DNA of 64,000 nt from a virus (lineage: Duplodnaviria; Caudoviricetes): the IMG/VR virus record IMGVR_UViG_3300013121_000023, positions 113,133 through 177,132 of that record. The stretch is one strand, 5' to 3'. A program made the position numbers and the translations under genes. The notes under the pieces were generated by a model, which had not been told where the DNA came from, made no database searches, and worked only from the letters and a program-made list of their open reading frames with translations. Position 1 is the stretch's first letter. Every line of letters starts with the position of its first letter. Below, piece by piece: positions 2-59,238 of this stretch.

Positions 2-250
2 GCACACGCACTCACCCAGTACATTCTACGTAACTTGCAAGAAGCCCAACAATGGGAAAAGGACTCAAACGTCCTTGTGTTTCTGCGGGTGCCCGACGAG
101 CAAGCCCTTATTTCTACAGCTGACAAGCTGAAGATTAATGGCGTTCCGGTGGAGGTGTTTACTGAGCCCGATTTGGGTAATAGGGCTACAGCACTGGCTG
201 CGTCACCGTCAGCAGCCAAGCACCTCAAAAGATACCCACTGATGAAGTTA
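2..250 (+). CDS. Peptidyl-tRNA hydrolase (PTH2-like), 5'-truncated
   Basis: Frame +2 reads AHALTQY...LVFLRV...FTEPDLGNRATALA, resembling phage PTH2-like proteins. TTA at 248-250 precedes a terminator; standard-code end is 346. Confidence 0.65.
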
Positions 251-252
251 CG

Positions 253-285
253 AAAGCGGGCCTCGGCCCGCTTTCTTTTTAACTA
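253..285 (+). terminator. Intrinsic terminator
   Basis: aaagcgggc-ctcg-gcccgcttt followed by a T-run. Confidence 0.75.
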
Positions 286-355
286 CCAAACATTATTCAT
301 TTACAGACATAAGATGTGTGAGAAAAAGACGTATTCTCAAATATAGGAGAAATCT

Positions 356-1090
356 ATGCGCGCTCTTCCGATGATTGAAGCTGCTCCACATAAAGGCCAA
401 CTCTACTGTTCAGTGCGGTATGCAAAAAATTACGTAGCTGATAAAAAGGATTTCTTTATGCGTCTATTTAGCAAGCTCGGTACGCATACATGCGCGCCAG
501 CAGCACACTGCTACACAGGAGATCCAGTAACCATATCTTCCATGTATTACGCATGCCCATTTTTGACGCATATCAAACCCACTTACCACAGATTGTCTTA
601 TCGGTGCGACCTGTTTGAAGATAAACTATCCACAGTTATCCCCAACAATACGGGAATACCGTTTCACATATACGACTTTGAAATGCTTATGAATAGTCTG
701 CAACGTGAAAATCAGATTGCTGTAGGTACTGCCATACAACTTCAAATTGGTCGTTTGTGGCAATGTCGTCAGCTACAAGAAGATTTGACTATGCATGGAC
801 GTTATCTCGGAGAAAGCAGAGATGGTCGCTCATCAGATGGGAATCATACGTCTGGTCTAAATATGATTCCATTTATAATACGTACCGATGGCGGTCAGTC
901 GTCTGACAAGATTTCACTCAATGCGAAAAAGGAGGTGTTCTTGAAAACGCTACTTAATCCATCACCACCAGTGACACAGATATACCCAATGTCGGCAGCA
1001 CTTGATGAACTGCATACAGCCGACGAGATGAAAACAGCGAGGAGTCGTTATGAAGAGATATTGAAAGAGTTGCCGAAAGTGGATGAATTA
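356..1090 (+). CDS. Hypothetical protein, paralog of 6088..6810
   Basis: GGAG RBS; shares CPFL..YRC.LF..RL..CRQLQEDL..HG. First TTA at 1088 (standard end 1210). Confidence 0.7.
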
Positions 1091-1160
1091 TCGTTGAAGA
1101 CAACTTTTACTCTGTGCTTCTGTAACGTAAGCGCTGTCTCGTTTTTAGAAAGGTGTGAAC

Positions 1161-2294
1161 ATGTCGTATTTCTTCACAAAAGACGATCTCTCGGTATCAT
1201 ACGGAACTAATCTGTATAACTGTTTGTACGATAATGACTTTTGGTCCAGCCTGTTGTCCAGAGTCTCGCTCAGACTAGGAATGTCTGCTTACGTAGGAAA
1301 TGTTGGCGACGCTAGATCTAAAATATCGAAAGATAACTTCGATAAGCTAGTGTCTATTCTTAAAGAGAGTTGTTTTACTAAAGTCTACTCAAGAGGTGAT
1401 TATCCGTCTTGTGAAGAGGTATATCTATCCGTAGCTGGATACGTGATTGTAGACGTATTCCAGGATAACCATACATTCATATATGTAGGAATGTTCGATA
1501 GGGAGTCTGTTAGTAAGCTTAAATCCAAAATAGAGCATCTTGTAGAAAAAGTACCTGAAAATAAAGTTGATAACATACCGCGGGTACACGTCGTAGTTCA
1601 AACATCTAGCGGCCTAGACACTAGGGAATTTAATAGTGTCTATTGCAAGCTAGTTCGGGATAACTATGACGCGCGCGTTCTTTCGCAGTGGGACAACGTT
1701 ATTTCTGAGTTCAAGAAATCCGAGCCTGTGGCTAGAATGGCCATACTGAATGGCCCGCCAGGCACCGGTAAAACACATCTTATAAAGTCCATGCTGTTTG
1801 AAGATGGATTGTTTTGCCTTCTTCTGCCAAATGATTTGTTTGTAAACGTGGCCTCACCGGCCTTCCTCAACTTCTTGATAAATACAGCAGGGAGAATTTC
1901 ACAGAAGTTGGTTCTTATACTTGAGGACGCCGATAGTCTATTGGAGGAGAGGTCCAACAAAGACGACGTTAATCCATTGGCGACGCTGCTCAATATGGCA
2001 GACGGAATATTGGGTAGAATATTGGATGTTCGTATGATTTTGACTACGAATAGAAAAGATCAAACGTATGACGCCGCTACCCTGAGAGCTGGTAGGCTTC
2101 TTCACAACATAAACGTAGATAAGTTGGAAAAGAATGGTGTACTCAAAGCCTTTAGAAACATACTGGCTGACAATGGGATGTCTGAGAATGACATTCATTG
2201 CGAACTAGAAAAATTCGCGGCGGATCGCATGTCCATTGCCGATGTATATGCGATGGCGTTTGATGTGCTCAACAAGAGAAGAGAAGCAAAATGA
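1161..2294 (+). CDS. AAA+ ATPase
   Basis: Walker A GPPGTGKT, Walker B LILEDAD, LLNMADG, TTN, RAGR. Confidence 0.9.
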   Translation: MSYFFTKDDLSVSYGTNLYNCLYDNDFWSSLLSRVSLRLGMSAYVGNVGDARSKISKDNFDKLVSILKESCFTKVYSRGDYPSCEEVYLSVAGYVIVDVFQDNHTFIYVGMFDRESVSKLKSKIEHLVEKVPENKVDNIPRVHVVVQTSSGLDTREFNSVYCKLVRDNYDARVLSQWDNVISEFKKSEPVARMAILNGPPGTGKTHLIKSMLFEDGLFCLLLPNDLFVNVASPAFLNFLINTAGRISQKLVLILEDADSLLEERSNKDDVNPLATLLNMADGILGRILDVRMILTTNRKDQTYDAATLRAGRLLHNINVDKLEKNGVLKAFRNILADNGMSENDIHCELEKFAADRMSIADVYAMAFDVLNKRREAK

Positions 2295-7513: not shown

Positions 7514-8644
7514 ATGGGTTCTTTTGATTTCACCTGTGCTATTTCACGTATGCCGATTAGCTATGAGCAGCGAGCTATCTTGCTACTATTGGCAGGTAAT
7601 GAGAGTGTCAGTAACAAAGGTTGTTCACCTAATGACTGGTGGTTCCCTTGGTCATTTCCAGTGTGTGCTACGTATAAAGATTATGGCAGGTTTGTACCTG
7701 TGTCGTGCCATGACGTATGGGAGAAAGTTCTACAGAAATATGTTGTGGTGAAGGAAGTAGGAGAAAACGAGTATCACGATGTACCCACACACAGGAATAT
7801 GAAATTCGAAGATATAATAGAAGCATGTCTAGAAGATAGACTGGAAATAACAGATAATGCAGGCGTAGTTTACCAAAACGCGCTTGAACTAAACGATGAA
7901 GCCAGTACGTATATACCAACAGTAAATAAAATACGTCGCATCATAAGTGGTATAATGAAAAAAGACGCAAATGATTTCTTGATAAGAAGGATAGGTAGAG
8001 GCGTTATTAACGTAAGCACCCGCATAGGCTCAACCATAAAAGCTAATAAGTTCTTTTCCGCTATGTGTAAATTCATAAACAGTAGAGCGACCTTCACATC
8101 TATAGTGACACCTGGTAAATACGAAGTCACTCTAACTATTTACGCAAAGCCTGGTAACTTTCATATGAATCCCGACGAGTCTATGGCTGGTGAACCACCG
8201 ACCAAAATGCCAATGGCTTTCATGGCTATAAGAGGCGATGTTTGGGATTATCTGAGTTCTACTAACTATACTGGTTTGACGAAAAAGAAAATACAGGCAG
8301 ACATAACACGACTGAGAAAGTTCGTGGATTCGTATAAGAACGAGCCGGAAAGTATGAGATACCACCTGTGTAAACTTGATATGTCAATTGAGTCACGCAT
8401 ATTTATAGATGGTGTTCTTGGACCTATGAGGTGTGATAGGTCACCGCATCTGTTGGTGGGCAGTAGCGAGAAAGAAGAGTTCTGGCGACTGGTACGTGCT
8501 TTCGCTACGGCTATGCCGGCTATACACAGACTCAGACACATGCTCGTGCCGTCCACGTCAGTTGGGTGGCAGGTGGATTATGGGGAGGCGCACGTTCGCG
8601 CCTATAAAGCGTTTGCTCAGATGGCTGGAAAAGGGAACAAATTA
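7514..8644 (+). CDS. Hypothetical protein
   Basis: GGAGGT RBS; ends TTA TGA with TTATG overlap. Confidence 0.75.
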
Positions 8645-10261: not shown

Positions 10262-10274
10262 GAAAGATTGTTTG

Positions 10275-10358: not shown

Positions 10359-10655
10359 ATGACAACAGCAGCGCGCATGAGGGATTTGGTGGGCGAATAT
10401 ACCAAAAAAGTCATTAGTGAAAATGAGGAACATATAAATGAAAACTTGCTACCGATATTCCTTAAAGACTTGTATTCTTGCATAGAATCAGCTGCATCTA
10501 AGGGACAGCGCACATACCAACATGCTATAAATCTTACAACCTTGAAGGTGCTGCATTTGGTTGTTCCACAATTGAGAGATCGAGGTTATTTGGTAGAGTA
10601 TATTACTAGTAGTACTACACAGCATCTTATGTACATGAACGTATCTTGGTCATTA
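10359..10655 (+). CDS. Hypothetical protein
   Basis: AAGGAG RBS; TTA at 10653 (standard end 10667). Confidence 0.65.
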
Positions 10656-10660
10656 CTTGG

Positions 10661-10696
10661 TAGCTAAAAAAGAAGAGAGCGAAAGCTCTCTTCTTT
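10661..10696 (-). terminator. Terminator between convergent genes, with TTTAGCTA tail
   Basis: aaagaagagagc-gaaa-gctctcttcttt next to TAGCTAAAAA. Confidence 0.8.
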
Positions 10697-11073
10697 AAAT
10701 ACTTGAATCTATGCGCCTCAATGTATGAGGCCATTACCTCTGCAATGTAGTCGGGGGCAATTCCCCGAAGTGCATTGCGACTGAGCACTTTTGCGGTACC
10801 CTTCCCCCACGGTACCTTCACTGCCTCAATATATGGTTTGCCCTCCCCTTCTGGATGGCGCATTGTTAGCAAGTGTCTCGCTGCCTGCATCAGCAGGGAG
10901 CTTACCTCCTTCGGCTCCTCCAGCCAAAGGATGTGGATTACTGGGTGGTTCAGCACCACCCTCAATTGCTTTATGGTTTCTTCATTTGCAATATCAGTGT
11001 ACCTAGTGCCCTCATGTACGAATGTCCTAATGTCCAACAGGGCCTTCCGAAGGCCCTCTATGTTTTCGTACAT
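10696..11073 (-). CDS. Hypothetical protein
   Basis: AGGAGG RBS; TTA at 10696-10698 directly before the terminator (standard end 10627). Confidence 0.7.
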
Positions 11074-11263: not shown

Positions 11264-11554
11264 TAACTTAGATATATCCAAAGAAAGGGAAATCAGCATA
11301 CCAATGAATTGGTCTCTTCCTTTTTCTACTTCTGTTATGAATTCCGAAACCAATTTGGTTTCGGTCGTGCCATTTGACTCTATTGTCATGTTCATGTTAT
11401 GAAAACATGACGATGCTGAATCTGGCCATATTGTGTGTGATACTTTATTAAACCGTTTGTGGAATAGATGCCACGCATCTCTAAAGCAGTCTGTTACATA
11501 GACCATAACCACCAGTTCTTTTCTTTCTGTGTCCTTTATGAAGTAAACGTTCAT
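11264..11554 (-). CDS. Hypothetical protein in tRNA cluster
   Basis: TTA at 11264-11266 ends it before tRNA-Val; standard end 11213 lies inside the tRNA. Confidence 0.65.
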
Positions 11555-12174: not shown

Positions 12175-12412
12175 ATCTACGCCTTCACTCATATTTCTTA
12201 TTGCGCTATTTATTTGATTTTTTCTTACGGTAGCTAAAAATAGATAGGGTTTGCTGATATAGGAGTAAGTTGGCCCGCCGTCATGATCGCCGTTATACCG
12301 GATGGAGTCTGGAGTACAGCTACTATCAACCGGGCCGAGAAGATAGATTTACAACGAACTGGTGTGGTTCGTATGACTAACGGTCTTTCGGGGCGCCTCA
12401 TCAAGACCGCTG

Positions 12413-12491
12413 TGCTCTTGGCAGGAGTCGAACCTGCAAATAATAAAGCCGCTTTTGAAACGGCCGCGTCTGCCTATTTCGCCACAAGAGC
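12413..12491 (-). tRNA. tRNA-Leu(CAA)
   Basis: GCCGT TT CAA AA GCGGC; Leu-type D arm. Confidence 0.85.
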
Positions 12492-12884: not shown

Positions 12885-12886
12885 GG

Positions 12887-12968
12887 TGCTGAGAGAGGGA
12901 CTCGAACCCTCACGGTTTTACCCGCCGGTACCTAAAACCGGGGCGTCTACCTATTCCGCCACCTCAGC
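12887..12968 (-). tRNA. tRNA-Leu(UAG)
   Basis: CCGGT TT TAG GT ACCGG; long variable arm. Confidence 0.9.
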
Positions 12969-13215: not shown

Positions 13216-13710
13216 TTATAAAGCTCTTCTTTTTTCTTTTGTAAAGAAGTCCAAGAGGTCTTGTGGAGAAGTAGCGCTTGGAACCAAGTCCGCCGAGCCT
13301 GGGTATTTGGCGGCCTTTAGGACGAACACAACGGATTCAGAGCAAAACATTGCGTGAGTGGTGTCAAATGGGTTTCTCCATTTCATTTTTAGCCACTTAC
13401 CTATTTGTACAAAGAATGCGCCTATTAGACCTGTGTAGTCATATCCACCACCTAGCCAATCTGTAGCCACACGCACACCCTCATCTAGCGGTTCTTGCGG
13501 AGTTATTATTTCTACTATGTCGTGTGTTTCTGCAAACCTAGAAAAGGAGGTCAACTTGAATCCTCCCTTTGTAGCTTCCATAACCATGGATTTACCTAGA
13601 AATGCATTTTCTATGATAAGCCATACGTGACTTACACGGCTCTTTGTGACCGCGCGTATGATTCTAGATATGACGTTGTTTTTGCTAGTAGAGAATCCTA
13701 TTCTGACCAC
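13216..13710 (-). CDS. Permuted papain-like (YiiX/NlpC-P60) amidase
   Basis: SHV...YDY...FCSE motif order; ends TTA TAA. Confidence 0.8.
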   Translation of the reverse strand: MVRIGFSTSKNNVISRIIRAVTKSRVSHVWLIIENAFLGKSMVMEATKGGFKLTSFSRFAETHDIVEIITPQEPLDEGVRVATDWLGGGYDYTGLIGAFFVQIGKWLKMKWRNPFDTTHAMFCSESVVFVLKAAKYPGSADLVPSATSPQDLLDFFTKEKRRAL

Positions 13711-17215: not shown

Positions 17216-17626
17216 TTATGGGTGCATGTTTATGCGCCCGGTATCAACATCATACGCTACGTTGTCCCAGTTCCCTATATCGTACTTCTCACCCAAATCT
17301 TTCTTTAGCTTTTCTATTTCGGCGGTTTTGTCTTTTGATTTTTCGTTTAGAAAAGCCACTCGTTCATTTATGCCGCGCATAGTGTGCCCTACTTGAAGCT
17401 CTGTGATACGAGCTTTTAGCTTGGCCACTTCTATGCTCATAGATGCTATTGCAGCATCTTTCTCAAGCATTGACTTGTTCAGCTCTAGGTTGTCCCTTTC
17501 AGTCTCAAGAAGATTTATCTGTAGCAGGTCTTCTTTGCTGAGATATTTAGCTGCTGGTGCATCTACCTCTGGCATTCTTGTGTTGGCGCCTTTCGATGGT
17601 TCCTCTGCAAGCATCACGTCTTCCAT
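17216..17626 (-). CDS. Coiled-coil protein
   Basis: Heptad pattern. Confidence 0.65.
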   Translation of the reverse strand: MEDVMLAEEPSKGANTRMPEVDAPAAKYLSKEDLLQINLLETERDNLELNKSMLEKDAAIASMSIEVAKLKARITELQVGHTMRGINERVAFLNEKSKDKTAEIEKLKKDLGEKYDIGNWDNVAYDVDTGRINMHP

Positions 17627-18102
17627 AACAGTCTCCTGTAAAGCTCTAGTGAAGGTTTCACTATGAGCGTATTTTCGTCCAAAGCCTGACCAAACGTTTG
17701 ATGATAACCAGATGCAGGCGGTGTCGTAGATAGTGTGCCTGTTGCAGATACCCAGTATCTTGCATTTGGCGTAAAACCAGGTTTTTGATAAATGCCGTAT
17801 ATAAGTACGGCTACCTGTATCGGGTTTATGACAGCCGTAACAATACCTATAGCTGGCATTTTATTTATGTCTGACACATCAGCTACGTCCACTGTAGGTA
17901 GGCCACCAGAAGACATGCCAGACACATACACTACGTAGCCAACGCCTGCTGTGGAGTTGTTAGCTACGATGGTTTGGTTCAGGGGCCATAGATTAGCAAG
18001 AATAGCCTTTCTGGTTTCACCAGACTGAACGATTGGAACAAGCTCGGCACCGGTAACAGCCGATGCTGGGTTTAGTTGGCTTATCTTCCTGCTAACCGCC
18101 AT
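17626..18102 (-). CDS. Capsid decoration/cement-like protein
   Basis: KISQL..A...GAELVPIVQ N-terminus; AIGIV..G...Y.VS..G.L...PP; TTATG overlap. Confidence 0.6.
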
Positions 18103-18106: not shown

Positions 18107-18244
18107 TAACTCTTGCAGCAGATAGCCGCCGTCTTCTTGAACTAGGTCGTCTGTATTTTCACACAGAATATGTCCGCCCTCATCATCTTCATCTCGTACT
18201 TGGTACGGGCGGGCATGTAGGTGGGAATTCGTATGTATCGGCAT
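18107..18244 (-). CDS. 45-aa virion-like peptide, not in the ORF track
   Basis: MPIHT...HILCENTDDLVQEDGGYLLQE; starts in TTATG and ends at TTA. Confidence 0.6.
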
Positions 18245-20820
18245 AACCAGTCATCCTTCTTTTGGGGCGCGCTCCAACCATCGCCTTCTACAGACTCTTC
18301 TAGCTTAGATACCTGTTTGCGCAATCTACGCAACTTAGATATATCGGAGTCTTCTTTCCATTTCTTAGCTGCATCCAACTGAGACAGGGCCATCCTGCTT
18401 ATGTCTCTATCCCATACTGCGTTCGATACTGATTTGCCCAACAAACCAGCTATCTGTGTACCTGCCAATAGAGTTGCTAGTCCCCTAGTTTTTGGATTTT
18501 CAAATCCTCTTACGTAGGCTGGTACGGTCATCAGGGCTGATAGGCCGGCTTTTGGAGCGTTCTCTCTCAGATCTTCCACTGTTTGCCCTAGAAGGGATCT
18601 TCTAGCTACCTCTTCAAGAGCGTTTGCTTTAGCCGGGCTTTTATTAGCCTCAACCGCCAGATTTTTTATTAGACTAGGTGCGTAGCTCTCCGCCATAAGA
18701 CCACCTAGAGCACCAGCACCAGCACCAGCTAGTAGGCTAGTAGCGGTTGGTACAAATAGAGACGATCTTACGGTTCGTTCATCGACGTTTCTGTTGAGAA
18801 GATTGGGTAGCAGCGCACCGCTAAACATCCCCACTACTGGGTTTATAGCGCTAAAACCAACACGACCGGCACTGGCTAGTTGTAGGCGCAGTTTATTTGC
18901 CGCCAATTCGTTCTTACCCTCATCTGTCATCTTAAAGTTGGCGCTACCGGCTGTCTTTAGGAAACCTATAGACTTTTTGAAATCGTCCATAGGAACTGAA
19001 TCTATACGGCCTATTATGGTGTCTTTGTAGGCAGGACTACTGTGAGCTAGAAACATCTTCCTGGCTTCTCCCTCAGAGTTAAATCCTAGCATTACTTTGT
19101 TTTCGTCGAACTTGCCGTTCAACATTTGCTTTATGATGAATGCTTTATCAGCATTTTTGTTCGGGCCTAGATATACGTCTGTCTCCTCTCCGTCTTTGTC
19201 TTTCGTGCCAGGTATAAAGCCGTAGTCTGTCTTGTACTTTCTGGTCCAGGCAGGCAGACCGTTCTTACCGTCAAACTTCTGTAGGAATCCCTTTGGTCTA
19301 TCTACATGGACAGGAATTCCTTGAAATTCAGTTTTCTTGTGTACCTTGTCTGACGCTGTTTTCTCGTGCTGCGGAAGAAGATCTCTGAATTGCTTTATCA
19401 GGTCTTCTTTCTTTTGCGACATATCTGACAAGTACTCGTCAACTGCCTTATCAGGAGTTCTCTTTAGCCACTTTTCATTGAACCTGGTTATCAAACCTTT
19501 TGGCCGAACACCTAGGTAGTGCTCGATCAACACTTTTCTTTCTTCTGGGGGAAGATCTGCGTGGCTGCCGTATCTGGCCGCTCTACCTTCTAGTTGCTTC
19601 AGCTTTTCTCTGTTCCAGTGTGGGTCTAGTATCTGTACCAACCTGGTACCTTTCAGGTCCAACCCCTCACCGCCAGCAGATGACACCAACAGTGCTCGCA
19701 GCTTACCCTCGTTGTAATCACGCACCATTTGGTCTCGTTTACTGTGCGCTATATCACCCGTAAACTCACCGAAAGGTACACCAGCTTCTTGTAGCTTTGC
19801 TTTGTACGGGTTTATGCCCGATTCCAGCCAGTTCGAGTAAACCAGAGCCTTCGCCCTAGGGTTTTCATCGATCATTTTCTTTAGTGTTTCGAAGGCTTTG
19901 TCTATCTTAGGCTGGTGTATGACAGCATCTTCCTTGGAAAGCCCCGCTGTGGTGTTCACAGCTTGTCTGGCCGAACCAAGAAAGTTGTTCATCATGGCAG
20001 ACTCCTGCTTGCTGGGAGGCAGGCCTCTTTTGACCTTTGCGGCCACCCATGGGGGCGCTTGACCCATGAGGGTGTCATATAGCTTCAGCTGGTCAGGAGT
20101 AAGTTCTACCTGTACCTGCTTGGTCTCCACATCGGGAAAGTTGTCTTTTGTCCCCGGATGGTAGTCAACCCATTTACTGAACTTCTGTTTCAGTTCTGGT
20201 GCTTTTCTGTCGTAAAGAACCTGAATCGTTCCAGGCGTAGCTTGGTTTATATGCTTGTCCCAAAAAGACGGCTTCACTACCTTTTCAGTTATGTACGCAG
20301 ATTCGAAGTCTTTTCTGTCGTGCGGCAGTATCTTTGCATTAGCGGCAAGGTTTATGAGTGGAGCTATATCAGCTGGATGATTGTAGAAAGGGCTACCAGT
20401 AAGCAGAAGTCTCTTATCCGCCTGTGCCCCCAAGTTTTTTATTGCTCGAAAGGTAGCGCTACCTATGTCCCTAGCTCTGTGCGCTTCGTCCACAATCATA
20501 AGTGGGTTTTCTTCTGTGGTTCCTTTCGCAGCTAGATTCTGAATGCTCTCTATATGAGCCGGCTGCTTATGCCCCTTCAGATGCTTGGCCCTCTCTTTAG
20601 CGTAGTTGTCCCTAAGCGCGGCTGGAACAACAACGGTGCTAGGTACCCCCAGAGCATCTTGTGCAGCTATGCTTGAAAGAGTCTTACCGCTACCCAGACC
20701 ATGAACAACCAACAACCCAGGTTGGTCTTCTTTCTGAATGCGATCTACTACACGTTGTTGATGAGGCAACAACGGTGTTTTTACCTCAGCTATCTTTAGC
20801 AAATCGTCGAGTAGTCCCAT
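18244..20820 (-). CDS. SNF2-type helicase fused to pyrophosphatase-like and hydrophobic domains
   Basis: HGLGSGKT, DEAH, LLTGSP, GEGLDL, EGRAARYG; DYGFIPGT.DKDGEETDV...DENKVMLGF; standard end 18142. Confidence 0.85.
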
Positions 20821-22262: not shown

Positions 22263-22281
22263 CTTTTTAGCGTTTCGTTAG

Positions 22282-22353
22282 CGCGGGTAACGGGACTTGA
22301 ACCCGTACATAAGGATTTAGAATCCTATGCTCTACCAGTTGAGCTATACCCAC
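22282..22353 (-). tRNA. tRNA with CUA anticodon (amber suppressor type)
   Basis: GTGGGTA/TACCCGC-G73; TAGGA TT CTA AA TCCTT; canonical D and T arms. Confidence 0.85.
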
Positions 22354-23657: not shown

Positions 23658-24842
23658 TAATTTTCCCTTTACGGACTCCACTACTGTAGAAGTTATAGAC
23701 TTTGCTGAGTCTATAACTTCCGCTATTTCCATGCCCAGCAGTTGGGCATTGGCCATGGCCTGCATGGCCACGAGCTTGGACAGCGTTTCTCTTACTTCTA
23801 TAGTTTCTTGCACTGTCCTGGCTGTATCATCAGCCATCTTGCTTGTTTCCCTTACAGCCACGGCCATGGAGTTGATAGCTTTGGCGATTTCATTTTGTTG
23901 ATTGAGCATAGCGATTTGAGTTGCCCCCAAATCCTCTAGCTTCTTAGCCATCTCAGATACGATGGCCAATATTTGTTGTGCAGCCCCACTCGCTGGAGCT
24001 GGAGCCGGTGTTGTGGCCTGTGGAACAGGCGGGGCTTCTGCGGCGGCTGGTGCTTCTACAGCCATCTTGGGCTTTCTAAGGCTCTTTTGCGCCGCCGTAG
24101 GCGCCGATGCAACAGACGCCGCTGTGGGCGCGGCTGGTGCGGCTGGTGCGGCTGGGGCCTGAGCGGGTGCTGTGGGTACGGAGGGGGTACTGTCTGCTAC
24201 TTCAGGAAGCACCCTCCCCTCCTTGGATGCATCCACTATGGCCGTTCTGACACTATCTGTAAAAAACTCTTTTCCTTTTGCCCTAAACAACTTTAGGGCC
24301 TGACTGGCGTAACTAACTTTCTTCGGGACTTCTAGCAGTATGAATTGAGGTGTGTAGGCGCCTATAGCGCTCATCATGCCCCTCAAATGTATCGGCGGTA
24401 TTGCCGCCAATACCTTTTCATCCAGCGGGGTTTCCCCAGCCATCTTGATGTATTCTTCCGGTGTCTTTGCTTCAGCTCTAACTGTCATGGTCATGGGCAA
24501 TCTCCTTTTTTGTACGGCTTTTGTGGCCAGAATCTTGTCTTTGTGCTCAGCATTCATAGCCAAGCAAACCAAAACTTGTGCGTCAACGCATTCGTAACAG
24601 GAGTAGGGGTCTCCGCTTGCTGCTGGGCATGTCAGCTGCGGTGATACCTGCCTCCATCTTTCCAGTAGAAAAGACATCAATTTATCTCTGATGCTATCTA
24701 CTGGGTTTCTTTCCCATTCTTCTAGATGTTCGTCGTTTTCTAGAAGAGAGATCAATCTTTCTTTAGCTAGTTCTTCATGGGCATCGTGTCCTAGTGACCT
24801 AGCGACCGTCACTAGCTCTTTTTTGTTAGCTTCTTCAAACAT
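23658..24842 (-). CDS. Hypothetical protein with Cys cluster, Ala/Pro linker and coiled coil
   Basis: Ends G GGA AAA TTA (standard end 23514). Confidence 0.7.
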
Positions 24843-34666: not shown

Positions 34667-34978
34667 TAAACCTGGCTCGGGTTCTTTGCTGGCCCAAGCG
34701 GCAACGATGCCAGACTCGCTGCTTGATGCGCTGGTGGGCCCATCGAACAAGACACGTAGTACATCTTGTTCGTAGCTGGCGAGAAACTTTTGGAAAAGTT
34801 CTTTGGTCTCATCGCTCATGACAGCGCTGGTGCCGTGGGAGAACGCCATAGTACCACCCGTTTTTGTATTTACAAGGGCCGTTCTGACAGACACGGAGAA
34901 GCCCCCGTGTTCGTGCTTGAACTCACCGTCATAAACCACCACAGCATCAAATTTTGGTATCCCAGATATAGGTGTCAC
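34667..34978 (-). CDS. Hypothetical protein
   Basis: TTA directly before hairpin at 34644-34666 (standard end 34616). Confidence 0.6.
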
Positions 34979-41194: not shown

Positions 41195-42114
41195 GCTACT
41201 CAAAGCAGCACGCTGTTTTGGCTTTTGTCAATGAGATCGAAAAGACAGCAGTGTCTCACAGCGTTGGGGCGCCACTAACTGCTGCTGCTTTGGGGGGTCT
41301 TTGGTTTGGCAAGAACAAGTGGGACGAGGCCAGGGAACGTGGTGAGGGTGTTGGGGACGCTGCTTTGTCGGCGCTCAAAGGTGGCTTGAAGGGCGCCGTG
41401 GGTGGTGGCCTGGTAGGTGGTGCCATCAGCAAGCTATCGCCCATGGTGGAGAGGAACTTGTCTCAGTTCGGACAGGCTCAGCTACACGGCTATACTGGGT
41501 GGACACCAAAGAATATGACGTACGAACAGGCCATGGCACATATGGACCTTGGTACGCATGGTGTAGCTGGTGATGTAGCGCGTTATAAAGACGAGTTGGC
41601 TAAAGCCATAGAAGAAAAAGCAAAACATGTGGGAGACCCATCAGGCCCGGTATCTGTACTAAAGCGACACCTGCTGGATAGAAAAATAGGTTCTTTGCCA
41701 GAACAGATAACCAGTACAACAGAGGAGCTAAATAAAAGACTTAGTAATCCTCATGTTGCTAAAGCTACCGACTGGCAGCTTACTAGTTTGCCTGGTTACC
41801 TAAAGGCGATGAAAGAGCATGGTGTATTGCCAGTTGCGAAAGCGTCTCTTAACGAAGCCTGGCACAGCGCACCTGGGTTGTGGAAGGCTCCGCTTATAGC
41901 TGGCTCTGTAATGCCTTTGTACTACGGAATCTCTGGACCGGTACCAGAAGACAGCAGCAGAGCTGAGGAAGTTGCCAAAGGCGTCGGCAGAGCTGTAGCT
42001 AACCCATTTGGATTCGGATTGCCCATGCAGGCAGCAAATGCTGTGGGCGATGCTAGTGGGTATATCGCTGGTTCAGTAGGCAAGGGCGTTGATTATCTGA
42101 TGAATAGAGGTTTA
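41191..42114 (+). CDS. Gly/Ala-rich putative virion protein
   Basis: AF.NEIEKTA leader, glycine zippers; TTA at 42112 (standard end 42123). Confidence 0.65.
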
Positions 42115-44386: not shown

Positions 44387-44870
44387 TGTCGTCTTCTCCA
44401 GTGAAAATGTCCCACAACTCTTCGTTTGAGTTCATAGCTACTGCGCAATCGAAACAAACGAAGGTCGCATTGTTCTCATCGATTTTTATGACCGGTGAGA
44501 TTGGGGCCGCATTTTCTTTGTATATAGGGCTCTTTTTTGGGGCCGTTATTTTTGCTTCTGCCGCTCTTATGCATTGCACTTGATAAGCAATAAATCTACA
44601 GCAGCGTGAACATACGCACGCTGGATCTGACGTTTCTCCCTCTTCTACTGCTACAGGTACGTCAGATACACTGTTGAACAACTCCCCCCAACAGTGCTCA
44701 TGCATTATTAGAGGATCTTCCTCCTCTATTATGAAATTTGGTAGATTGTGCATCCTTTCGAAAAATCCAATATTCAGCACTACTACCAACTCTTTGCATT
44801 TGAAGGAATCGCCGCATGTGCAAGCGAATTCTTCTTCTAGTATTGCATTAATAATTTCGTCAACGTCCAT
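44340..44870 (-). CDS. Acidic Zn-binding protein
   Basis: CxC, HxxC, CxxC; poly-Asp tail. Confidence 0.6.
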   Translation of the reverse strand: MDVDEIINAILEEEFACTCGDSFKCKELVVVLNIGFFERMHNLPNFIIEEEDPLIMHEHCWGELFNSVSDVPVAVEEGETSDPACVCSRCCRFIAYQVQCIRAAEAKITAPKKSPIYKENAAPISPVIKIDENNATFVCFDCAVAMNSNEELWDIFTGEDDNDDVDDDDDDDDKWP

Positions 44871-52075: not shown

Positions 52076-53310
52076 TGCCACACCCAATAAGAAACACGAT
52101 GCACGAATCTGCTGGTACGGGAGCTACCCGTACCATGCAGTGCCGTGTCATGGACATCAACCTGAAGAATTGGACGGTTGATGTAGTTACCGTATTTGAT
52201 CAGAAGTACTACAAAGGACTTCAGATAAGTTCTGGTTACCTTCACTGGCACAAAGGCGAAGGTTTCTACGCCATACCCGAAGTAGGCGCCCTGTGTCACA
52301 TAACGGTGCCAGGTGACTCTGCACCGCCCTTTGTTGGAGACTTCGTAGCACCGCTGGAAATAAGAACTGATGGTGCAGCCCCAGGACAAGAAGAAGATAC
52401 TAGGTCTCGCGGGTCAACTACCCCGTATGTCTCTGATGCATCTTTTGCAGCAGGCAGAAAGCTTGGTAAACCAGGCGACATACTTATGGTTGGCAGGGAC
52501 GGGCAGTTCGTAATTCTTCACAGAGGCGGCGTCCTACAGATAGGAAGTACATCTCTATCTCAACGTGTTTACATACCTATATCTAATAGAATTGTAGACA
52601 TAGCCGAAAACTACGAGCTTAAAAGCATAGCCGGGACTATGAGTTGGCAGATTCTAGATGAACAGAGTGAAGACCAAACGCCTGCCGAATTCTGCCAAAC
52701 ATTCAGGTTGTACGCTCAAGATAAATACGCAGATATACGTGTGAAGACAGGTAAGGTAACAGCTCCTATTGCTGAACAAGATGGTTCTGAAACTCTCGGA
52801 CACATAAAAGAACTAGACATGGGTCAAGATGACGGACCCATAGTCCATGAGGTTGTTATCGCTCCCGGTGGATTTAATTCTGACGGTAGCGCCGCTTCTT
52901 CTGACACCAAAAACCTAACTGTTCTTAAGTATTTTTTCGATCGCAAGGGTAACTTCTTTTTTAGAACAGAAAAGAATGTGTATGTGTTTGTTAGAGGTAG
53001 AACACATGCTGTATTCAAGGGCCCTGTTTTGTTGGAAGGCGAAGAAGATCTAAGACTCAACTTTAAAAAGGGTGTCGCTTTCATCGGTCCTGACGGTGTG
53101 GCCATAGAAGGAAAAGTTGTAAGCGTAAACAAGGGTAATGCTCCTGTTGCTAGAATGGGAGACCCTGTGACGCTAGCTCCAGGGATAATACCTGTGTCTG
53201 GCACGATCACTCCCCCAGGTGGTCCACCAGCTGCCTTTATTGGCACGCTGACTATAACTACACCACTATTGGGTGCCATCATAGGTGGTAATCCAGGCTT
53301 TAGGGCGTTA
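52075..53310 (+). CDS. Baseplate hub/spike (gpV/gp5-like) protein
   Basis: G.Y.IPEVG OB-fold pattern; VARMGD C-terminus; TTATG overlap (standard end 53328). Confidence 0.65.
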
Positions 53311-54090: not shown

Positions 54091-56295
54091 ATGACGCAAC
54101 CTCTGTTTTTCAGCAACAAGAATGAGTTTGTAAAGGAGGCTGGTTACACGGTCAGCCTGCCTGACGATCCTAATCAGTGGCCGCAGCAACTCCAAGACGA
54201 GTTGTACAAGCAGGCGCCGTTTATCGCCCACTATGACGTTCATGTGAACATGAACCAGGTGGACGCTGAGCAGGGTTTTGGAATCGGTGTTGTTGAGGTC
54301 AGAAACAAGTCAGACCTTCCTGAATCGGCCAGTGAAGACCTACGAGCAGTTGTAGGTCTCAATTCGGTTCGAATTCCTGTGATCGTCGTATCTCGCAAAC
54401 TACAGCCATTTGATGTGATGCTAGTAGGTTCTGGCGATGAGACGAAAACTGTACCTTTGACGGACGCTAGGATGCGTCAGGCCTTGTTCAGGCCACAAGT
54501 TGGGGATGTCACCAGCAAGATGCCAGGCGACCAGTCCCTAGTACAAACACTGTTTCCGCCTTTCAGAAGCATGTATGGCTTCGGCGGTCAGGGTATGTTC
54601 CTCGGTAATAGCGTCAAGATGGCTTCCGAACATGCGGAAGACAGGTACGCCACTCTGAGCGATCACCACCTAGACGCGCTGGGTTTGCATGGAGATAACA
54701 GAGAGAATTTCAAGAAATCTTGGCCTGCCCTAAGAAAGCATATGAAAGATGACGAAAGAAATGCTTTCTACAGCAAGTTCCAGAAGGCCGACGAATCATT
54801 CGTAAAGAGTGCTTCGTCTTCAACCATACTGGCGTCGATACTCCCTACTATCGCACCTACTGACTACGGTAGGTTCCTGTACGAGCTATCTTCAGATACC
54901 AAGATAGCAAATGCGTTTGCTACAAATCCAGCAGCTTCGGCTGCCATGCAGGCTCTATCGCTCTATAACCCGGATATGGCGGTAGAGGCAGAAAAAGTAG
55001 CCACAGAGAATGCTGTAGGCACGTTGATGCCAACGGTCATACAGCTAACCAAGTTGGCCTCTGGTTACAGGATTAAAACGGCATCGCACAAGATGTGGTC
55101 TCCTACCACTATCGACCTAGACAGAGGCCAGGCTATAAAGCTTACCTCTGCGGCTATGGTGAAAGCGGCTGATGAGGCTGGTTCTATAACAGCGATAACT
55201 GGGGAAGATACTGCACCTGTAGAAGACACCGGTAAAGCCGAGGTGATAACAAAGCCAGGTCTTTACAAGGTGAAGAGCTGCGACGGTAATGAAATGCTTG
55301 GGTATGTCTTCCCCAAGCTTATAGACACTGATGGAAACCCTGTACCTATAGCTCTGTTTACGAACGGAGCTAAGGGCTCAGTGCAGGGAGAAATAGCTGG
55401 TATACAAGCTGGCTCAGCTCAAACACTTCCGACAGGAACAATACCCAGAGGAGAGGGTGTGTTCTATAGAGATGGCGTAGAAGGTGAGCTGGAGGCCACC
55501 ATACCTTTCTCTATAAAGACCTCTATGAACATAGGTAACGGTAACCAGTACATAGGTTCAACCTATGACGGTAGACCTGTGCGGTTGACTATTTCTGGCA
55601 ACGTCAAAAAAATAACATCGTCTGGTATGGATGTATTGGTACCGGATTCGTATCAGTGGGTGTCATTTGACAAGGTTGATATCGACGCATTGATGTCAAA
55701 GCCAGATGACTACATTAAAACCGCTGCATTGATAGGTTCCAAGGTAGACATACGATCTGATGGAACATACGTATCGCTGCGCGGGTTCCCTCTTGAAAAG
55801 CTAGGGAATACAGACTTCCTGTCGATGGACGATGCCGTATTTTACTTGGGCGGCATGGGTGTATCACCTGTTCATGTATTCGAAAAGATAGGACAGGCGA
55901 TACTTTCCAACAAACCTGTATCAGTGCATATAGGTAGGCACTTGAACATGGTAGAAGACGTACAGCAAAAGCTTGCGTCTAGAAATGCTCAGGTGAATAA
56001 CAGTGTCGCTCACCTGAGACGATTCCTGGTTAAAGAAGCAGCCGAGATACCGGACCCTACTTCTGTAGATGCCGTCCTTTCCTTGGGCTTTTTGAATCCG
56101 TCTAACTTGGGTGTTTACGTGGAGCACCTACCCACTCTGGACGAGGCTGTAGTGAAGATGTGCTCCATGCTCATATCGGCCAGACTTGGGCAAAGCACTT
56201 TGCCTGTGCCTGCCCTAGAAAAGGCCATAAGGAGCACTGAAGAGGTCATACAGGCCTTGCATATCATGGCCGTTAAAGCCATGCCTGCATCTTTA
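54091..56295 (+). CDS. Large putative virion protein with K-x-A motifs
   Basis: KEA, KMAS, KSAS, KVA, KLAS, KTAS, KTAA; TTA at 56293 (standard end 56307). Confidence 0.7.
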
Positions 56296-57262: not shown

Positions 57263-57522
57263 ATGCTGTCCGTGCTTTTTTGTCCATAGATTCTACTAAA
57301 AACAGAGCTGTTAGAAGAAAAGGATGGGTAGAAGGTGTATATCTTCTTATAGAAACAATAGAAGTAAAAGATGCTAGAGTTAAAAAGATAAGACGATTTG
57401 TTGTTGTAATAGAGGTAAATGAAAACTTCATAATGCTCTACGATCAGAGTATAACACCAGACGATCTGCTGGCTGATGATTGGGAAGCTGTGACCATAAA
57501 CGGCTTGCCGTCTGTACAGTAG
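57259..57522 (+). CDS. DUF2829/Tad2-like protein
   Basis: VRRKGW...DDLLADDWEAV. Confidence 0.6.
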   Translation: MNAVRAFLSIDSTKNRAVRRKGWVEGVYLLIETIEVKDARVKKIRRFVVVIEVNENFIMLYDQSITPDDLLADDWEAVTINGLPSVQ

Positions 57523-57558
57523 CTAAATGAAAAGGGGGCGTATACCGCCCCCTTTTCA
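57520..57558 (-). terminator. Terminator with TTTAGCTA tail
   Basis: tgaaaagggggcg-tatac-cgcccccttttca. Confidence 0.8.
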
Positions 57559-57563
57559 AAGTA

Positions 57564-57974
57564 CTACTCAGCACTCATTTCATCTATGTGTTTTATGATT
57601 TGCGCTTTAGCTGCTCTGTTTGCCTCTCTAAATCTATTCAATACGAAATCTGGCATGGTCGGAAAGTTATCTTTTATATCTACTACATGGTAAATTATGT
57701 AGGTTACTGCGTTTGTGTTTATTGTGCTACATCTACACGAAGCACGGACTAGCCATTCTACGTATTCCACTACATTAATGTCGTGTGTTATGCAGGTATT
57801 AAACGTATCGTCGTCAATCAATACCTTTAGTATTTCCATTGTTACTACGTGTTCTGAGTTGACATAGAAGCGCTCTCTAAGTATTTCTATTGCTTTAGAT
57901 ACTGATTCTTGACTGTTGCATATTTCTCTTACCTCTTCTCTTACTTTCTCTACATCGCATTCTATCAATTCCAT
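57564..57974 (-). CDS. Hypothetical protein
   Basis: Coupled ORF. Confidence 0.6.
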   Translation of the reverse strand: MELIECDVEKVREEVREICNSQESVSKAIEILRERFYVNSEHVVTMEILKVLIDDDTFNTCITHDINVVEYVEWLVRASCRCSTINTNAVTYIIYHVVDIKDNFPTMPDFVLNRFREANRAAKAQIIKHIDEMSAE

Positions 57975-58429
57975 AATCGATCTGCTGCCTCTATTACAGA
58001 TTTCATCTCCTGTATAACCTCCATGTATGCCACCGTATACGTGTCTACAATAGCGAACATTTGATTGATCTTTAGCGCCGCTTCCAATCTCAGGCCCGTA
58101 TCAGAGCCAACATTGGTGCTGTGCATCTGTATTGACCTACACACACCGTGCTGCCTCAGTATGAGCCGAAGCGCTACGCACGCTAGTGCGTATAGCTCCA
58201 GTATATTATCATTGTGGTGTTGCTCCAAGTTTGTTATGGCTATGTTAATGTCAGACCCGTATTCGTCTTTGTACTCAGTAGCTACTCTGGTTATGTGTTC
58301 GTATTTCACAACTGCCGGCTTCCTGGTTATACGTCTGTTTTCTCCTATATCGAAAGAAATAAATGACCTAACGATTGGCTCTTCAACCGAACTAGAAAGC
58401 GCAAAAGATACTACGTCTATAGAGTTCAT
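57965..58429 (-). CDS. Hypothetical protein
   Basis: GGAGG RBS. Confidence 0.6.
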   Translation of the reverse strand: MNSIDVVSFALSSSVEEPIVRSFISFDIGENRRITRKPAVVKYEHITRVATEYKDEYGSDINIAITNLEQHHNDNILELYALACVALRLILRQHGVCRSIQMHSTNVGSDTGLRLEAALKINQMFAIVDTYTVAYMEVIQEMKSVIEAADRLWN

Positions 58430-59238
58430 TGGAAATCTACCTCCATGTAAGATGGAAACACAAACGGTATGCTGTTTGGGTCGCTATTTATGGTGCTGCT
58501 ACATATGTAACTCATGGCTTTTAGAACGGCTCCCTTGTCTTCCTGGTAGAAGATTGGTAGGCACGGATTACTAGTTATCTCCTTGAGCGCCCTATACCAA
58601 TTCTTTATTGGTGTTGCTTTACTTCTTAGACTCGCAATTTCTGTACGAAATGTATCTAGCTTATCAGTAGTAGCTAGCAGACAAATAGCGTATCTGTTTG
58701 AATAAACCTCTTCTTCATCTGTGAGCATGAATGGCGGAGTCAATTGATAATAAGTAAGCTGACCGTTTTGTCTTGAGCACATATACTCCATATTGTTATT
58801 CTTTATGTATTTTTCTTTGTGTACAGCCATATCTGGTGAGTTTATGTAGTTAGGTACTCTTATTTTAGAAATATCACATATTACATCTGTGCGTATTTTA
58901 TTGAGCATCTTTGGGGAGCCGTATATATCTATTTTTGGACCGTAGCCATTTAGGCGGTGGCAGGCTGCATTTGACTCTAGTGCGAATTTGTACATCCAGG
59001 CATAATTGTTCTCAGATTCTGCGACCCACTCAGCTACATTTCGATCTGATCTTGTTTTCAATACGTATGGGCTAACGGATACGCTGTCCCTGTACACGTA
59101 TTCACCTGTCATTATCGTTTTAGCCGAGCCTAGTATTTTTACCGCTTCTGTAGCGTATTGCCATATCTCTTTTAGAGCTATTGACTTGGCTGATACAATT
59201 GGACATTCGTGGAAAAACATAAAGGGCCCTGAATACAT
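58426..59238 (-). CDS. Pyrimidine-dimer DNA glycosylase (DenV-like), divergent
   Basis: F....P..SA....EA..IL; W..ES..NY.WM. Confidence 0.5.
   Translation of the reverse strand: MYSGPFMFFHECPIVSAKSIALKEIWQYATEAVKILGSAKTIMTGEYVYRDSVSVSPYVLKTRSDRNVAEWVAESENNYAWMYKFALESNAACHRLNGYGPKIDIYGSPKMLNKIRTDVICDISKIRVPNYINSPDMAVHKEKYIKNNNMEYMCSRQNGQLTYYQLTPPFMLTDEEEVYSNRYAICLLATTDKLDTFRTEIASLRSKATPIKNWYRALKEITSNPCLPIFYQEDKGAVLKAMSYICSSTINSDPNSIPFVFPSYMEVDFQ

What the first reader, a model, noticed from the sequence alone, without database searches (positions are those of the whole stretch)
248..59222. UUA acts as a stop (or unassigned terminating) codon: candidate new phage genetic code
Seen: no in-frame TTA in gene bodies scanned by hand (both AAA ATPases, about 85 Leu together; DNA polymerase, 0 in frame versus about 19 out of frame; SF2 helicase; first ~500 codons of RNAP), although TTG, CTA and CTT are common. 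In about 23 genes an in-frame TTA sits at the natural end: 248, 1088, 8642, 10653, 42112, 53308, 56293 (+); 10696, 11264, 13219, 15455, 17626, 18107, 18244, 23658, 27239, 28534, 28650, 30979, 33184, 34667, 44852, 59220 (-). TAA, TAG and TGA are still used as stops. Known: UUA-stop occurs in Thraustochytrium mitochondria (table 23); I know of no bacterial or phage case. Inference: UUA is a fourth stop, either read by a release factor or a hungry codon where ribosomes are released.
Basis: partly seen in the sequence, partly recalled or inferred. Interest (0 to 1): 0.97.

Follow-up and report, generated by a model that had tools for sequence, protein, structure and literature searches.

The report
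Phage that ends genes with TTA
In this complete 177-kb phage genome the leucine codon TTA never occurs inside genes; it sits where related phages have a stop codon, so it acts as a fourth stop signal, a genetic-code change I found published only for a few organelles.

Summary
The genome is one contig with direct terminal repeats and about 46% GC.

- **Depletion.** Among 54,374 codons of genes called under the standard code there are 61 in-frame TTA. Of these, 57 lie within 60 codons of the canonical stop. The other four are two gene ends (two codons in one sheath-tube spacer) and two junctions between adjacent genes.
- **Homology.** In 22,007 codons aligned to two related phages, TTA occurs once, at the last column. 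Other Leu codons occur 185-462 times.
- **Gene ends.** Orthologue C-termini match TTA-defined ends as well as they match TAA, TGA and TAG ends. The tail sheath ends at TTA at the shared C-terminus of all 21 homologues aligned; most of the about 120 homologues listed cover the same part of the query. The standard code would fuse sheath and tube.
- **Downstream signal.** Coding signal stops at TTA. There are 17 TTATG stop-start overlaps, and 14 terminator-like hairpins follow TTA stops.
- **Re-called genes.** With TTA as a stop there are 227 genes: TGA 81, TTA 66, TAA 54, TAG 26.

The mechanism is unknown. The phage has no tRNA-Leu(UAA) and no recognisable release factor. I favour an altered release factor supplied by the host. 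Raw reads could not be checked.

Earlier unchecked notes of this scan report the same pattern in other, unrelated phage genomes. I found no publication.

The parts
248..250 (+). TTA stop of the PTH2-like gene (89-250)
   Evidence: The Pfam PTH2 match ends 9 profile positions before the profile end, which places the natural C-terminus at about the TTA. A terminator hairpin starts at the next base.
1088..1090 (+). TTA stop of gene 356-1090
   Evidence: First in-frame TTA. The standard ORF would run 40 codons further, hold a second TTA and overlap the next gene.
8642..8644 (+). TTA stop of gene 7514-8644, TTATG overlap with 8644-9213
10653..10655 (+). TTA stop of gene 10359-10655
   Evidence: The phrog_5321 profile end (92/92) falls at residue 97 of 98.
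10696..10698 (-). TTA stop of gene 10696-11073
   Evidence: A terminator-like hairpin starts 1 nt after the TTA.
11264..11266 (-). TTA stop of gene 11264-11554, inside the tRNA cluster
13219..13221 (-). TTA stop of gene 13219-13710, followed directly by TAA
15455..15457 (-). TTA stop of gene 15455-16000, TTATG overlap with 14811-15455
17626..17628 (-). TTA stop of gene 17626-18102, TTATG overlap with 17216-17626
18107..18109 (-). TTA stop of small ORF 18107-18244 (45 aa; gene status uncertain)
18244..18246 (-). TTA stop of the SNF2 helicase-InPase gene 18244-20820
   Evidence: The only in-frame TTA in 858 codons; 14 lie out of frame. The standard ORF would add 34 codons.
23658..23660 (-). TTA stop of gene 23658-24893
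   Evidence: The standard ORF would add 48 codons holding a second TTA.
27239..27241 (-). TTA stop of the RecA-like gene 27239-28465
28534..28536 (-). TTA stop of the Zn-ribbon ORF 28534-28728
   Evidence: Strong RBS upstream; a terminator-like hairpin lies 15 nt downstream.
28650..28652 (-). TTA closing the 103-aa ORF 28650-28961
   Evidence: The ORF starts by an ATGA overlap with the polA stop. My caller did not keep it because it overlaps 28534-28728.
30979..30981 (-). TTA stop (tandem TTA TTA) of gene 30979-32193
   Evidence: Terminator-like hairpin 17 nt downstream.
33184..33186 (-). TTA stop of the DnaB-like helicase 33184-34623, TTATG overlap with 32150-33184
34667..34669 (-). TTA stop of gene 34667-34978
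42112..42114 (+). TTA stop of gene 41191-42114
   Evidence: The next gene starts at 42120.
44852..44854 (-). TTA stop (tandem TTA TTA) of gene 44852-45382
   Evidence: The G1 orthologue has 3 residues left after the alignment and this gene has 3 left to the TTA.
53308..53310 (+). TTA stop of gene 52075-53310, TTATG overlap with 53310-54080
   Evidence: The G2 orthologue has 4 residues left and this gene has 4.
56293..56295 (+). TTA stop of gene 54091-56295
   Evidence: Orthologues have 1 and 5 residues left and this gene has 4.
57974..57976 (-).
59220..59222 (-). TTA stop of gene 59220-59705, TTATG overlap with 58426-59220
12412..12491 (-). tRNA-Leu(CAA), reads UUG only
   Evidence: ARAGORN; Rfam 53.4 bits.
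12885..12968 (-). tRNA-Leu(UAG), reads CUN
   Evidence: No tRNA-Leu(UAA) anywhere in the genome, even at relaxed ARAGORN thresholds.
22281..22353 (-). tRNA with anticodon CUA (amber suppressor type)
   Evidence: TAG nevertheless behaves as a stop.
89..250 (+). PTH2-like peptidyl-tRNA hydrolase gene (start uncertain; the frame is open from genome position 113074, just before the window)
   Evidence: Pfam PF01981, E 6e-5. An orthologue is present in relative G1, which uses TTA as a sense codon.

Best explanation
UUA is a genuine translation-termination signal in this phage. Its code equals the bacterial code with TTA = stop. That is formally the same codon table as NCBI table 23, reached independently.

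Shown: ribosomes do not make protein past TTA. Conservation, coding signal and gene organisation all end there. TTA is the second most used stop, at 66 of 227 genes. It is found in every 20-kb block of the genome, including the tail-sheath gene.

Inferred mechanism: no tRNA-Leu(UAA) is available in the infected cell. The phage supplies its own tRNA-Leu(CAA) and tRNA-Leu(UAG) instead. UUA is then read directly by a class-I release factor of altered or widened specificity. The phage encodes no recognisable release factor, so the factor is most likely the host's. On this reading the host lineage itself uses this code and the phage has adapted to it.

Likely origin: codon capture. The phage family is GC-rich (55-69% in the relatives examined) and TTA is rare or absent there. 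This lineage then drifted to 46% GC with its own tRNAs for A-ending codons, and TTA reappeared only as a stop.

My odds: termination at UUA 0.85-0.9. Among mechanisms: host release factor about 0.5, ribosome rescue at an unassigned codon about 0.2, unrecognised phage factor about 0.15.
For: - Depletion: 17 TTA in 31,269 ORF-core codons; every other sense codon at least 54.
- Position: 57 of 61 in-frame TTA lie within 60 codons of the canonical stop.
- Homology: 1 TTA among 22,007 aligned in-frame codons, at the last column, against 185-462 for each other Leu codon.
- Sheath: the ORF at genome 21850-25797 reads 1315 codons under the standard code. Both relatives' sheaths end exactly at its codon 1037 = TTA. 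All 21 homologues aligned end at the same C-terminal motif. Most of the about 120 database homologues listed cover 79% of the query, i.e. residues up to about 1036.
- Two further standard-code ORFs (genome 18276-20534 and 72404-74827) are split by TTA into genes that are separate in relatives.
- C-terminus concordance within 3 residues: 20/28 pairs for TTA, against TAA 10/15, TGA 22/36 and TAG 6/7.
- Coding log-odds fall from +0.18 before TTA to -0.06 after it; off-frame is -0.10. TTA frequency after the first TTA is 1.6%, against 1.4% off-frame.
- 17 TTATG stop-start overlaps. 17 of the 26 TT-preceded ATG starts are in frame with the upstream gene.
- Terminator-like hairpins follow 14/66 TTA stops, against 14/161 canonical stops.
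- Distance to the next in-frame stop is the same as for canonical stops, so there is no sign of leakiness.
- No tRNA-Leu(UAA).
- No RF-1 domain at E <= 1. No translation factor other than PTH2 in Pfam scans of 220 of 227 proteins.
- Relatives use TTA as a rare sense codon or lack it because of GC content.
- Precedent: organellar sense-to-stop changes correlate with release-factor mutations and fit codon capture (PMC6821328).
Against: - No protein-level or ribosome-level data exist.
- Raw reads were not checked.
- My gene caller was trained on this genome, so start choice is partly circular. The orthologue comparisons are independent of it.
- Only about 40% of codons are covered by the two relatives.
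- The host is unknown.
- Bacterial RF1 and RF2 are known to require a purine at codon position 2 (my own knowledge), so UUA reading needs an unprecedented specificity.
- My partial search of Myxococcota found no genome that avoids internal TTA and no RF2 with a changed SPF serine among the matches shown.
- At window 248 a relative's protein aligns 4-5 residues past the TTA. That stretch is the translated terminator hairpin, so the match is weak and ambiguous.
Confidence: 0.85

Rival explanations
1. UUA is an unassigned (hungry) codon and is not read by a release factor. With no tRNA-Leu(UAA), ribosomes stall at UUA. The chain is then freed by a rescue route: ArfB-like hydrolysis, ribosome splitting followed by peptidyl-tRNA hydrolase (possibly the phage's PTH2-like enzyme), or tmRNA.
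For: No tRNA-Leu(UAA) and no release factor in the phage. A PTH2-like gene is present. Two relatives carry tmRNA genes. TTA stops are enriched just before terminators. As I recall it, AGA/AGG ends in vertebrate mitochondria were long discussed in this way.
Against: - The sheath gene ends in TTA, as do 29% of all genes, and a slow rescue route seems costly at that scale.
- A stalled ribosome would cover an overlapping start, yet TTATG overlaps are frequent.
- There is no excess of back-up stops.
- The PTH2-like gene is also present in relative G1, which uses TTA as a sense codon.
- This phage has no tmRNA.
- As I recall it, in vitro work on unassigned codons in Micrococcus luteus and Mycoplasma capricolum showed stalling without release.
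Confidence: 0.2
2. The phage itself imposes the code. It brings a termination factor without detectable similarity to RF1/RF2, and perhaps inactivates host tRNA-Leu(UAA). UUA then terminates only in infected cells, and host mRNAs with internal UUA are cut short.
For: Most of the 227 proteins have no known family. The phage carries its own tRNA-Leu(CAA) and tRNA-Leu(UAG), as if it were independent of host Leu decoding. TTA-free coding holds in all genome blocks.
Against: No candidate was found: no RF-1 or PCRF-like domain, no GGQxVN motif and no tRNA nuclease family. Genes translated at the very start of infection would already need UUA termination. Earlier scan notes report the same code in unrelated phages, which fits a shared host trait better.
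Confidence: 0.15
3. TTA is still leucine and is only a very rare codon, because the tRNA is scarce. Its position near gene ends is tolerated noise.
For: GC-rich relatives have very few TTA codons.
Against: The genome is 46% GC and TTA is common out of frame. This reading cannot explain the exact match to orthologue stops, the sheath-tube fusion it implies, the loss of coding signal after TTA, or the return of TTA to background frequency after the first TTA.
Confidence: 0.02
4. Artefact of the record: a systematic sequencing or assembly error (for example TAA read as TTA at modified DNA), or an altered sequence.
For: Reads could not be inspected. No near-identical record was available for comparison.
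Against: An error would depend on sequence context, not on reading frame, and cannot remove Leu-TTA from gene bodies. Real TAA stops are also present, at 54 genes. Out-of-frame TTA triplets translate to conserved residues under the normal reading.
Confidence: 0.03

Closest known systems
NCBI translation table 23 (Thraustochytrium / labyrinthulean mitochondria: TTA = stop)
   Same: The codon table is formally identical. TTA terminates in addition to TAA, TAG and TGA, and TTA is absent from gene bodies.
   Different: That case is a small organellar genome with a nucleus-encoded mitochondrial release factor. This one is a 177-kb bacteriophage that must use bacterial-type translation, has 66 TTA-ended genes, and arose independently.
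Other organellar sense-to-stop changes: UCA/UCG in Sphaeropleales mitochondria (table 22) and UUR in Pycnococcus (PMC6821328)
   Same: A sense codon disappears and returns as a stop (codon capture). There is no cognate tRNA. In those cases the change correlates with mutations in the single release factor, which is the mechanism I favour here.
   Different: Different codons and compartment. No release factor could be examined here.
Stop-codon-recoded phages (TAG to Gln, TGA to Trp; bioRxiv 10.1101/2021.08.26.457843)
   Same: A phage with a non-standard code and a suppressor-type tRNA in the genome.
   Different: The direction is opposite: stop-to-sense there, sense-to-stop here. In this phage TAG and TGA do not occur at conserved in-frame positions, and TAG ends match orthologue ends.
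Unassigned codons of GC-rich or reduced bacteria (Micrococcus luteus AGA/AUA, Mycoplasma capricolum CGG; from my own knowledge)
   Same: The codon is missing from coding sequence and no tRNA reads it. A GC-rich ancestry makes codon loss plausible.
   Different: An unassigned codon is simply absent. Here it is positively used to close 29% of genes.
AGA/AGG at the ends of two human mitochondrial ORFs (from my own knowledge)
   Same: Codons without a tRNA found only at ORF ends. The same debate applies: dedicated release factor or rescue factor.
   Different: Two ORFs there, 66 here. Shifting the frame does not create a standard stop here: the base after TTA is A or G in only 34% of cases.

Membership tests
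Genetic code with UUA = stop (table 23 type) | No in-frame TTA at conserved positions inside genes | tested here: met
   1 TTA, at the last column, in 22,007 aligned in-frame codons; other Leu codons 185-462.
Genetic code with UUA = stop (table 23 type) | In-frame TTA coincides with the C-termini of homologues that end in canonical stops | tested here: met
   Exact for the sheath. 20/28 pairs within 3 residues, the same as for canonical stops.
Genetic code with UUA = stop (table 23 type) | TAA, TAG and TGA retained as stops | tested here: met
   C-terminus concordance TAA 10/15, TAG 6/7, TGA 22/36.
Genetic code with UUA = stop (table 23 type) | No tRNA that reads UUA | tested here: inconclusive
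   None in the phage. The host is unknown.
Genetic code with UUA = stop (table 23 type) | A release factor able to read UUA | not testable with these tools
   No release factor in the phage and the host is unknown. A partial Myxococcota survey found none.
Genetic code with UUA = stop (table 23 type) | Termination shown at protein level | not testable with these tools
   No proteome or ribosome-profiling data.
Stop-codon-recoded phages (codes 4 / 15) | In-frame TAG or TGA at conserved positions | tested here: not met
   0 TAG, 0 TAA and 1 TGA (at an alignment end) in 22,007 aligned codons.
Stop-codon-recoded phages (codes 4 / 15) | Suppressor tRNA encoded by the phage | tested here: met
   tRNA(CUA) at 22281-22353.
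Unassigned codon | The codon is absent from reading frames altogether, gene ends included | tested here: not met
   66 genes are closed by TTA.
bldA-type TTA regulation (Streptomyces) | Rare TTA inside a subset of genes, read as Leu by a dedicated tRNA | tested here: not met
   No internal TTA and no tRNA-Leu(UAA).

The most novel reading that the evidence does not exclude
The code change is a weapon, not an adaptation. The phage removes UUA decoding and supplies a new, non-RF-like termination activity. In infected cells every host mRNA with an internal UUA is then terminated early, while the TTA-free phage genes are untouched. This would be host shut-off by switching the genetic code.
Probability: 0.1. 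Interest if true: 0.98.

Novelty: new variant of a known kind. Interest (0 to 1): 0.9.

Why it matters
- **Published precedent.** Sense-to-stop reassignment has, as far as I could find, been published only for a few organelles. A clean case in a large phage shows that the bacterial-type termination system can acquire a fourth stop codon.
- **Mechanism.** RF1 and RF2 are thought to demand a purine at codon position 2. The case therefore points either to a release factor with a new specificity, possibly in a whole unrecognised host lineage, or to a new termination route.
- **Annotation.** Standard gene callers mis-annotate such genomes. They produce fused sheath-tube and fused sigma-factor ORFs, false C-terminal tails on about 29% of genes, and false overlaps.
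- **Other uses.** A natural example of freeing a sense codon is of interest for genome recoding. The code could also serve as a marker for linking phages to hosts.

Tried and rejected
- **Reads.** Reads were not checked and read laying was not used.
- **Near relatives.** Megablast of the RNAP gene against cultured phages found nothing. The sheath protein finds only distant Vibrio, Bacillus and Salmonella phage hits.
- **Release factor.** No RF-1 domain in the genome at E <= 1. Of 8 GGQ tripeptides none has the GGQxVN context.
- **Other factors.** Pfam over 220 of 227 proteins gave no aminoacyl-tRNA synthetase, tRNA nuclease or rescue factor except the PTH2-like gene. PHROGs on the ORFs in the tRNA cluster gave nothing relevant.
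- **Hidden tRNA-Leu(UAA).** None at relaxed ARAGORN thresholds. Rfam found only tRNAs and no tmRNA.
- **Frameshift to a standard stop.** Rejected. The base after TTA is T in 55% of cases and A or G in 34%.
- **Sequence context.** No conserved motif around TTA stops.
- **Leaky stop with back-up stops.** Rejected.
- **Temporal or regional restriction.** None; all 20-kb blocks hold TTA stops.
- **TAG recoding by the suppressor tRNA.** No support.
- **Closest relatives.** Contigs at 52-58% sheath identity all use the canonical code. No second member of this code turned up in the searches I ran.
  - An RF2-motif pattern search over 401 Myxococcota genomes showed only Ser-Pro-Phe among the 150 matches displayed; 180 more were not shown.
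  - Two HPF-motif paralogues lack GGQ, and their genomes use TTA inside genes.
  - Ten further genomes with RF2 motif HRL(I/V)R-x-SP(F/Y) also carry TTA deep inside long ORFs.
  - No UUA-stop host was identified, so the lead is neither confirmed nor refuted.
- **MAG links.** The sheath family occurs on contigs binned to a Myxococcales MAG and an Anaerolineales MAG. This is too weak for host assignment.

Full report
**What the record is.** The window is the last 64 kb of a single 177,132-bp viral contig with direct terminal repeats, estimated complete, at about 46% GC. It encodes:
- a fused beta-beta' RNA polymerase;
- family-A DNA polymerase, helicases, primase and a RecA-like protein;
- a roughly 1036-aa tail sheath;
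- ten tRNA genes by ARAGORN, eight of which pass Rfam's threshold.

No cultured phage is close. The family is known only from metagenomes. The sheath search returned more than 300 homologues, mostly on 180-200 kb contigs.

**Check of the observation.** Standard-code ORFs show the pattern at once. Long real genes have no in-frame TTA except within the last few dozen codons or upstream of the likely start. Spurious antisense ORFs are full of TTA.

- In ORF cores genome-wide, TTA occurs 17 times in 31,269 codons. Every other sense codon occurs at least 54 times, and the other Leu codons 248-648 times.
- A codon-usage gene call under the standard code gives 204 genes and 54,374 codons with 61 in-frame TTA. 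Of these, 57 lie within 60 codons of the canonical stop.
- 74% of in-frame TTA fall in the last 15 codons. The maximum for any other codon is 9.8%.
I add 57974.

**Does translation end at TTA?** Two related complete phage genomes were fetched whole. G1 has 60% GC and G2 55%, with polA 46% and 35% identical to this phage.

- *Conserved positions.* In tblastn alignments restricted to the frames of called genes, 22,007 codons of this phage are covered. TTA appears once, as the last column of an alignment that also ends the relative's protein. TTG, CTA, CTT, CTC and CTG appear 185-462 times each.
- *The four deep TTA codons.*
  - The 1315-codon ORF at genome 21850-25797 is sheath plus tube. Both relatives' sheaths end with their own stop exactly opposite codon 1037 = TTA. 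A second deep TTA lies six codons later, in the sheath-tube spacer.
  - All 21 homologues aligned share the C-terminal motif that precedes the TTA. Most of the about 120 database homologues listed cover only the first 79% of the ORF.
  - The ORFs at genome 18276-20534 and 72404-74827 are likewise two genes each. The downstream part matches a separate gene in the relatives.
- *C-termini.* With genes re-called using TTA as a stop, orthologue C-termini fall within 3 residues in 20 of 28 TTA-ended pairs. This is the same as for TAA (10/15), TGA (22/36) and TAG (6/7).
- *Coding signal.* Codon-usage log-odds drop from +0.18 per codon before the first TTA to -0.06 after it. Off-frame sequence scores -0.10 (p = 1e-14 against upstream, 0.07 against off-frame). 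After the first TTA, further TTA codons return at 1.6%, the off-frame rate.
- *Gene organisation.*
  - The four-stop call covers more of the genome with less overlap: 94.0% against 91.1%, and 1158 against 1708 doubly covered bases.
  - Seventeen upstream genes end in a TTA whose A is the A of the next gene's ATG; eight of these are in the window.
  - TT is the commonest dinucleotide before ATG starts, at 26 of 204. In 17 of those 26 the TTA is in frame with the upstream gene, where one third would be expected by chance.
  - Terminator-like hairpins with a T-run follow 14 of 66 TTA stops. Four of these follow TTA stops in the window, at 248, 10696, 28534 and 30979. The figure for canonical stops is 14 of 161. 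Under the standard code those ORFs would read through the hairpins.

Stop usage becomes TGA 81, TTA 66, TAA 54, TAG 26. TTA stops occur in every 20-kb block and are not followed by extra back-up stops.

**Rejected alternatives.**
- A sequencing or modification artefact would not respect the reading frame.
- Rare-codon avoidance does not explain the ends.
- A frameshift to a standard stop is excluded by the following base.
- No conserved context surrounds the codon.
- TAG is not recoded, despite the phage's tRNA(CUA).

I could not inspect reads. This is the main remaining technical gap.

**How it may work.** This part is inferred.

The phage tRNAs read AAA, GUA, ACA, AUA, AGA, CUA, UUG, AUG, UAY and UAG. 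Several of these A-ending codons (ATA, GTA, CTA, AGA, ACA) are the most used in their families; ATA is 60% of Ile. There is no tRNA-Leu(UAA), even at relaxed thresholds. There is no tmRNA. No release-factor domain was found. Pfam scans of 220 of 227 proteins found nothing translation-related except a PTH2-like hydrolase, and a relative that reads TTA as sense has that gene too.

Relatives are GC-rich at 55-69%. TTA is a rare sense codon in them or is absent. This fits codon capture: loss of TTA in a GC-rich ancestor, then a drift to lower GC in this lineage, supported by its own tRNAs.

Frequent TTATG overlaps, use in the sheath gene and the lack of back-up stops argue for fast termination of the release-factor type, not slow rescue. 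With no phage factor visible, a host factor is the simplest source. Organellar precedents link sense-to-stop changes to release-factor mutations (PMC6821328).

**Earlier notes of this scan.** Other first-stage readers flagged the same pattern elsewhere in this genome. I verified their sheath-tube and TTATG points.

Notes on other genomes describe TTA as a fourth stop in several unrelated phages, including a 435-kb soil phage. One follow-up claims a small group of myxobacteria with an altered release factor as hosts. These notes are unchecked. They raised my odds for a host-determined code.

My own partial test did not find such a host. I ran an RF2 motif pattern over 401 Myxococcota genomes and read 14 genomes' release-factor loci for TTA usage. 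The sheath family does occur on a contig binned with a Myxococcales MAG, and on another binned with an Anaerolineales MAG. That is weak evidence.

**Comparison and novelty.** The codon table equals NCBI table 23. The nearest mechanistic analogues are organellar sense-to-stop codes.
- Published phage code variants go the other way, from stop to sense.
- Three full-text searches found no report of UUA, or any sense codon, as a stop in a phage or bacterium.
- I class this as a new variant of a known kind. The kind of change is known; the setting (a bacterial-type system in a large phage) and probably the molecular solution are new.

**Verdict.** Termination at UUA has about 0.85-0.9 confidence. 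The mechanism is open.

Noticed in passing
window 22281-22353 (-): A well-formed tRNA with anticodon CUA (amber suppressor type; 67.5 bits in Rfam). Yet TAG closes 26 genes, and those ends match orthologue ends. Its target is unknown.
   Followed up: partly
window 89-250 (+), frame open from genome 113074: PTH2-type peptidyl-tRNA hydrolase-like gene (an archaeal/eukaryotic type). It starts right after the TAG of the upstream gene; a GTG with an AGAGGG Shine-Dalgarno-like site is available. It ends in TTA, and a terminator hairpin follows directly. An orthologue is present in relative G1.
   Followed up: partly
whole genome; tRNA cluster at window 10274-13121 (-): Codon usage is tilted to the A-ending codons that the phage's own tRNAs read. 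ATA is 60% of Ile, and AGA, GTA, CTA and ACA are each the top codon of their family. Relatives are GC-rich and have few tRNAs, so this lineage looks dependent on its own tRNAs.
   Followed up: partly
window 11951-12023 and 13042-13121 (-): ARAGORN's tRNA-Ile(UAU) and tRNA-Tyr(GUA) have irregular arms and do not reach Rfam's tRNA threshold. At relaxed settings ARAGORN also reports tRNA-like elements with short 'introns' at window 11817-11928 and 12651-12733. A weak YrlA (Y RNA-like) hit lies at 11757-11866.
   Followed up: no
G1 (L014) 143109-143475 and G2 (L025) 161047-161424, record coordinates: Both related phages encode a tmRNA, with tags ANDNATPALAVDKAA and ANDNGTVAQRLAA. The TTA-stop phage has none.
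   Followed up: no
window 45665-52075 (+): Single 2136-aa fused beta-beta' multisubunit-type RNA polymerase. The standard-code ORF begins 85 codons earlier, but that extension holds three in-frame TTA.
   Followed up: partly
genome 72404-74827 (outside the window; L030 12404-14827): An 807-codon standard-code ORF ending in a sigma-factor domain is split by TTA at codon 541. The sigma part matches separate genes in relatives, so a 'two-form sigma polyprotein' reading is probably an artefact of the standard code.
   Followed up: partly
window 25287-63850 (one of the 41 proteins in alignment A3): Pfam hits to a Tad2-like (Thoeris anti-defence) domain and to a DUF2201 metallopeptidase/VWA pair. 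The individual genes were not located.
   Followed up: no
L042 9576-10769 (-) and L043 9302-10486 (+): Two Myxococcota genomes carry an RF2-like paralogue with HPF in place of SPF and no GGQ. Both genomes use TTA inside genes, so this is unrelated to UUA termination.
   Followed up: partly
genome-wide: Half of the 28 terminator-like hairpins found just after genes follow TTA stops: 14 of 66 TTA-ended genes against 14 of 161 others. TTA may be preferred at operon ends.
   Followed up: no
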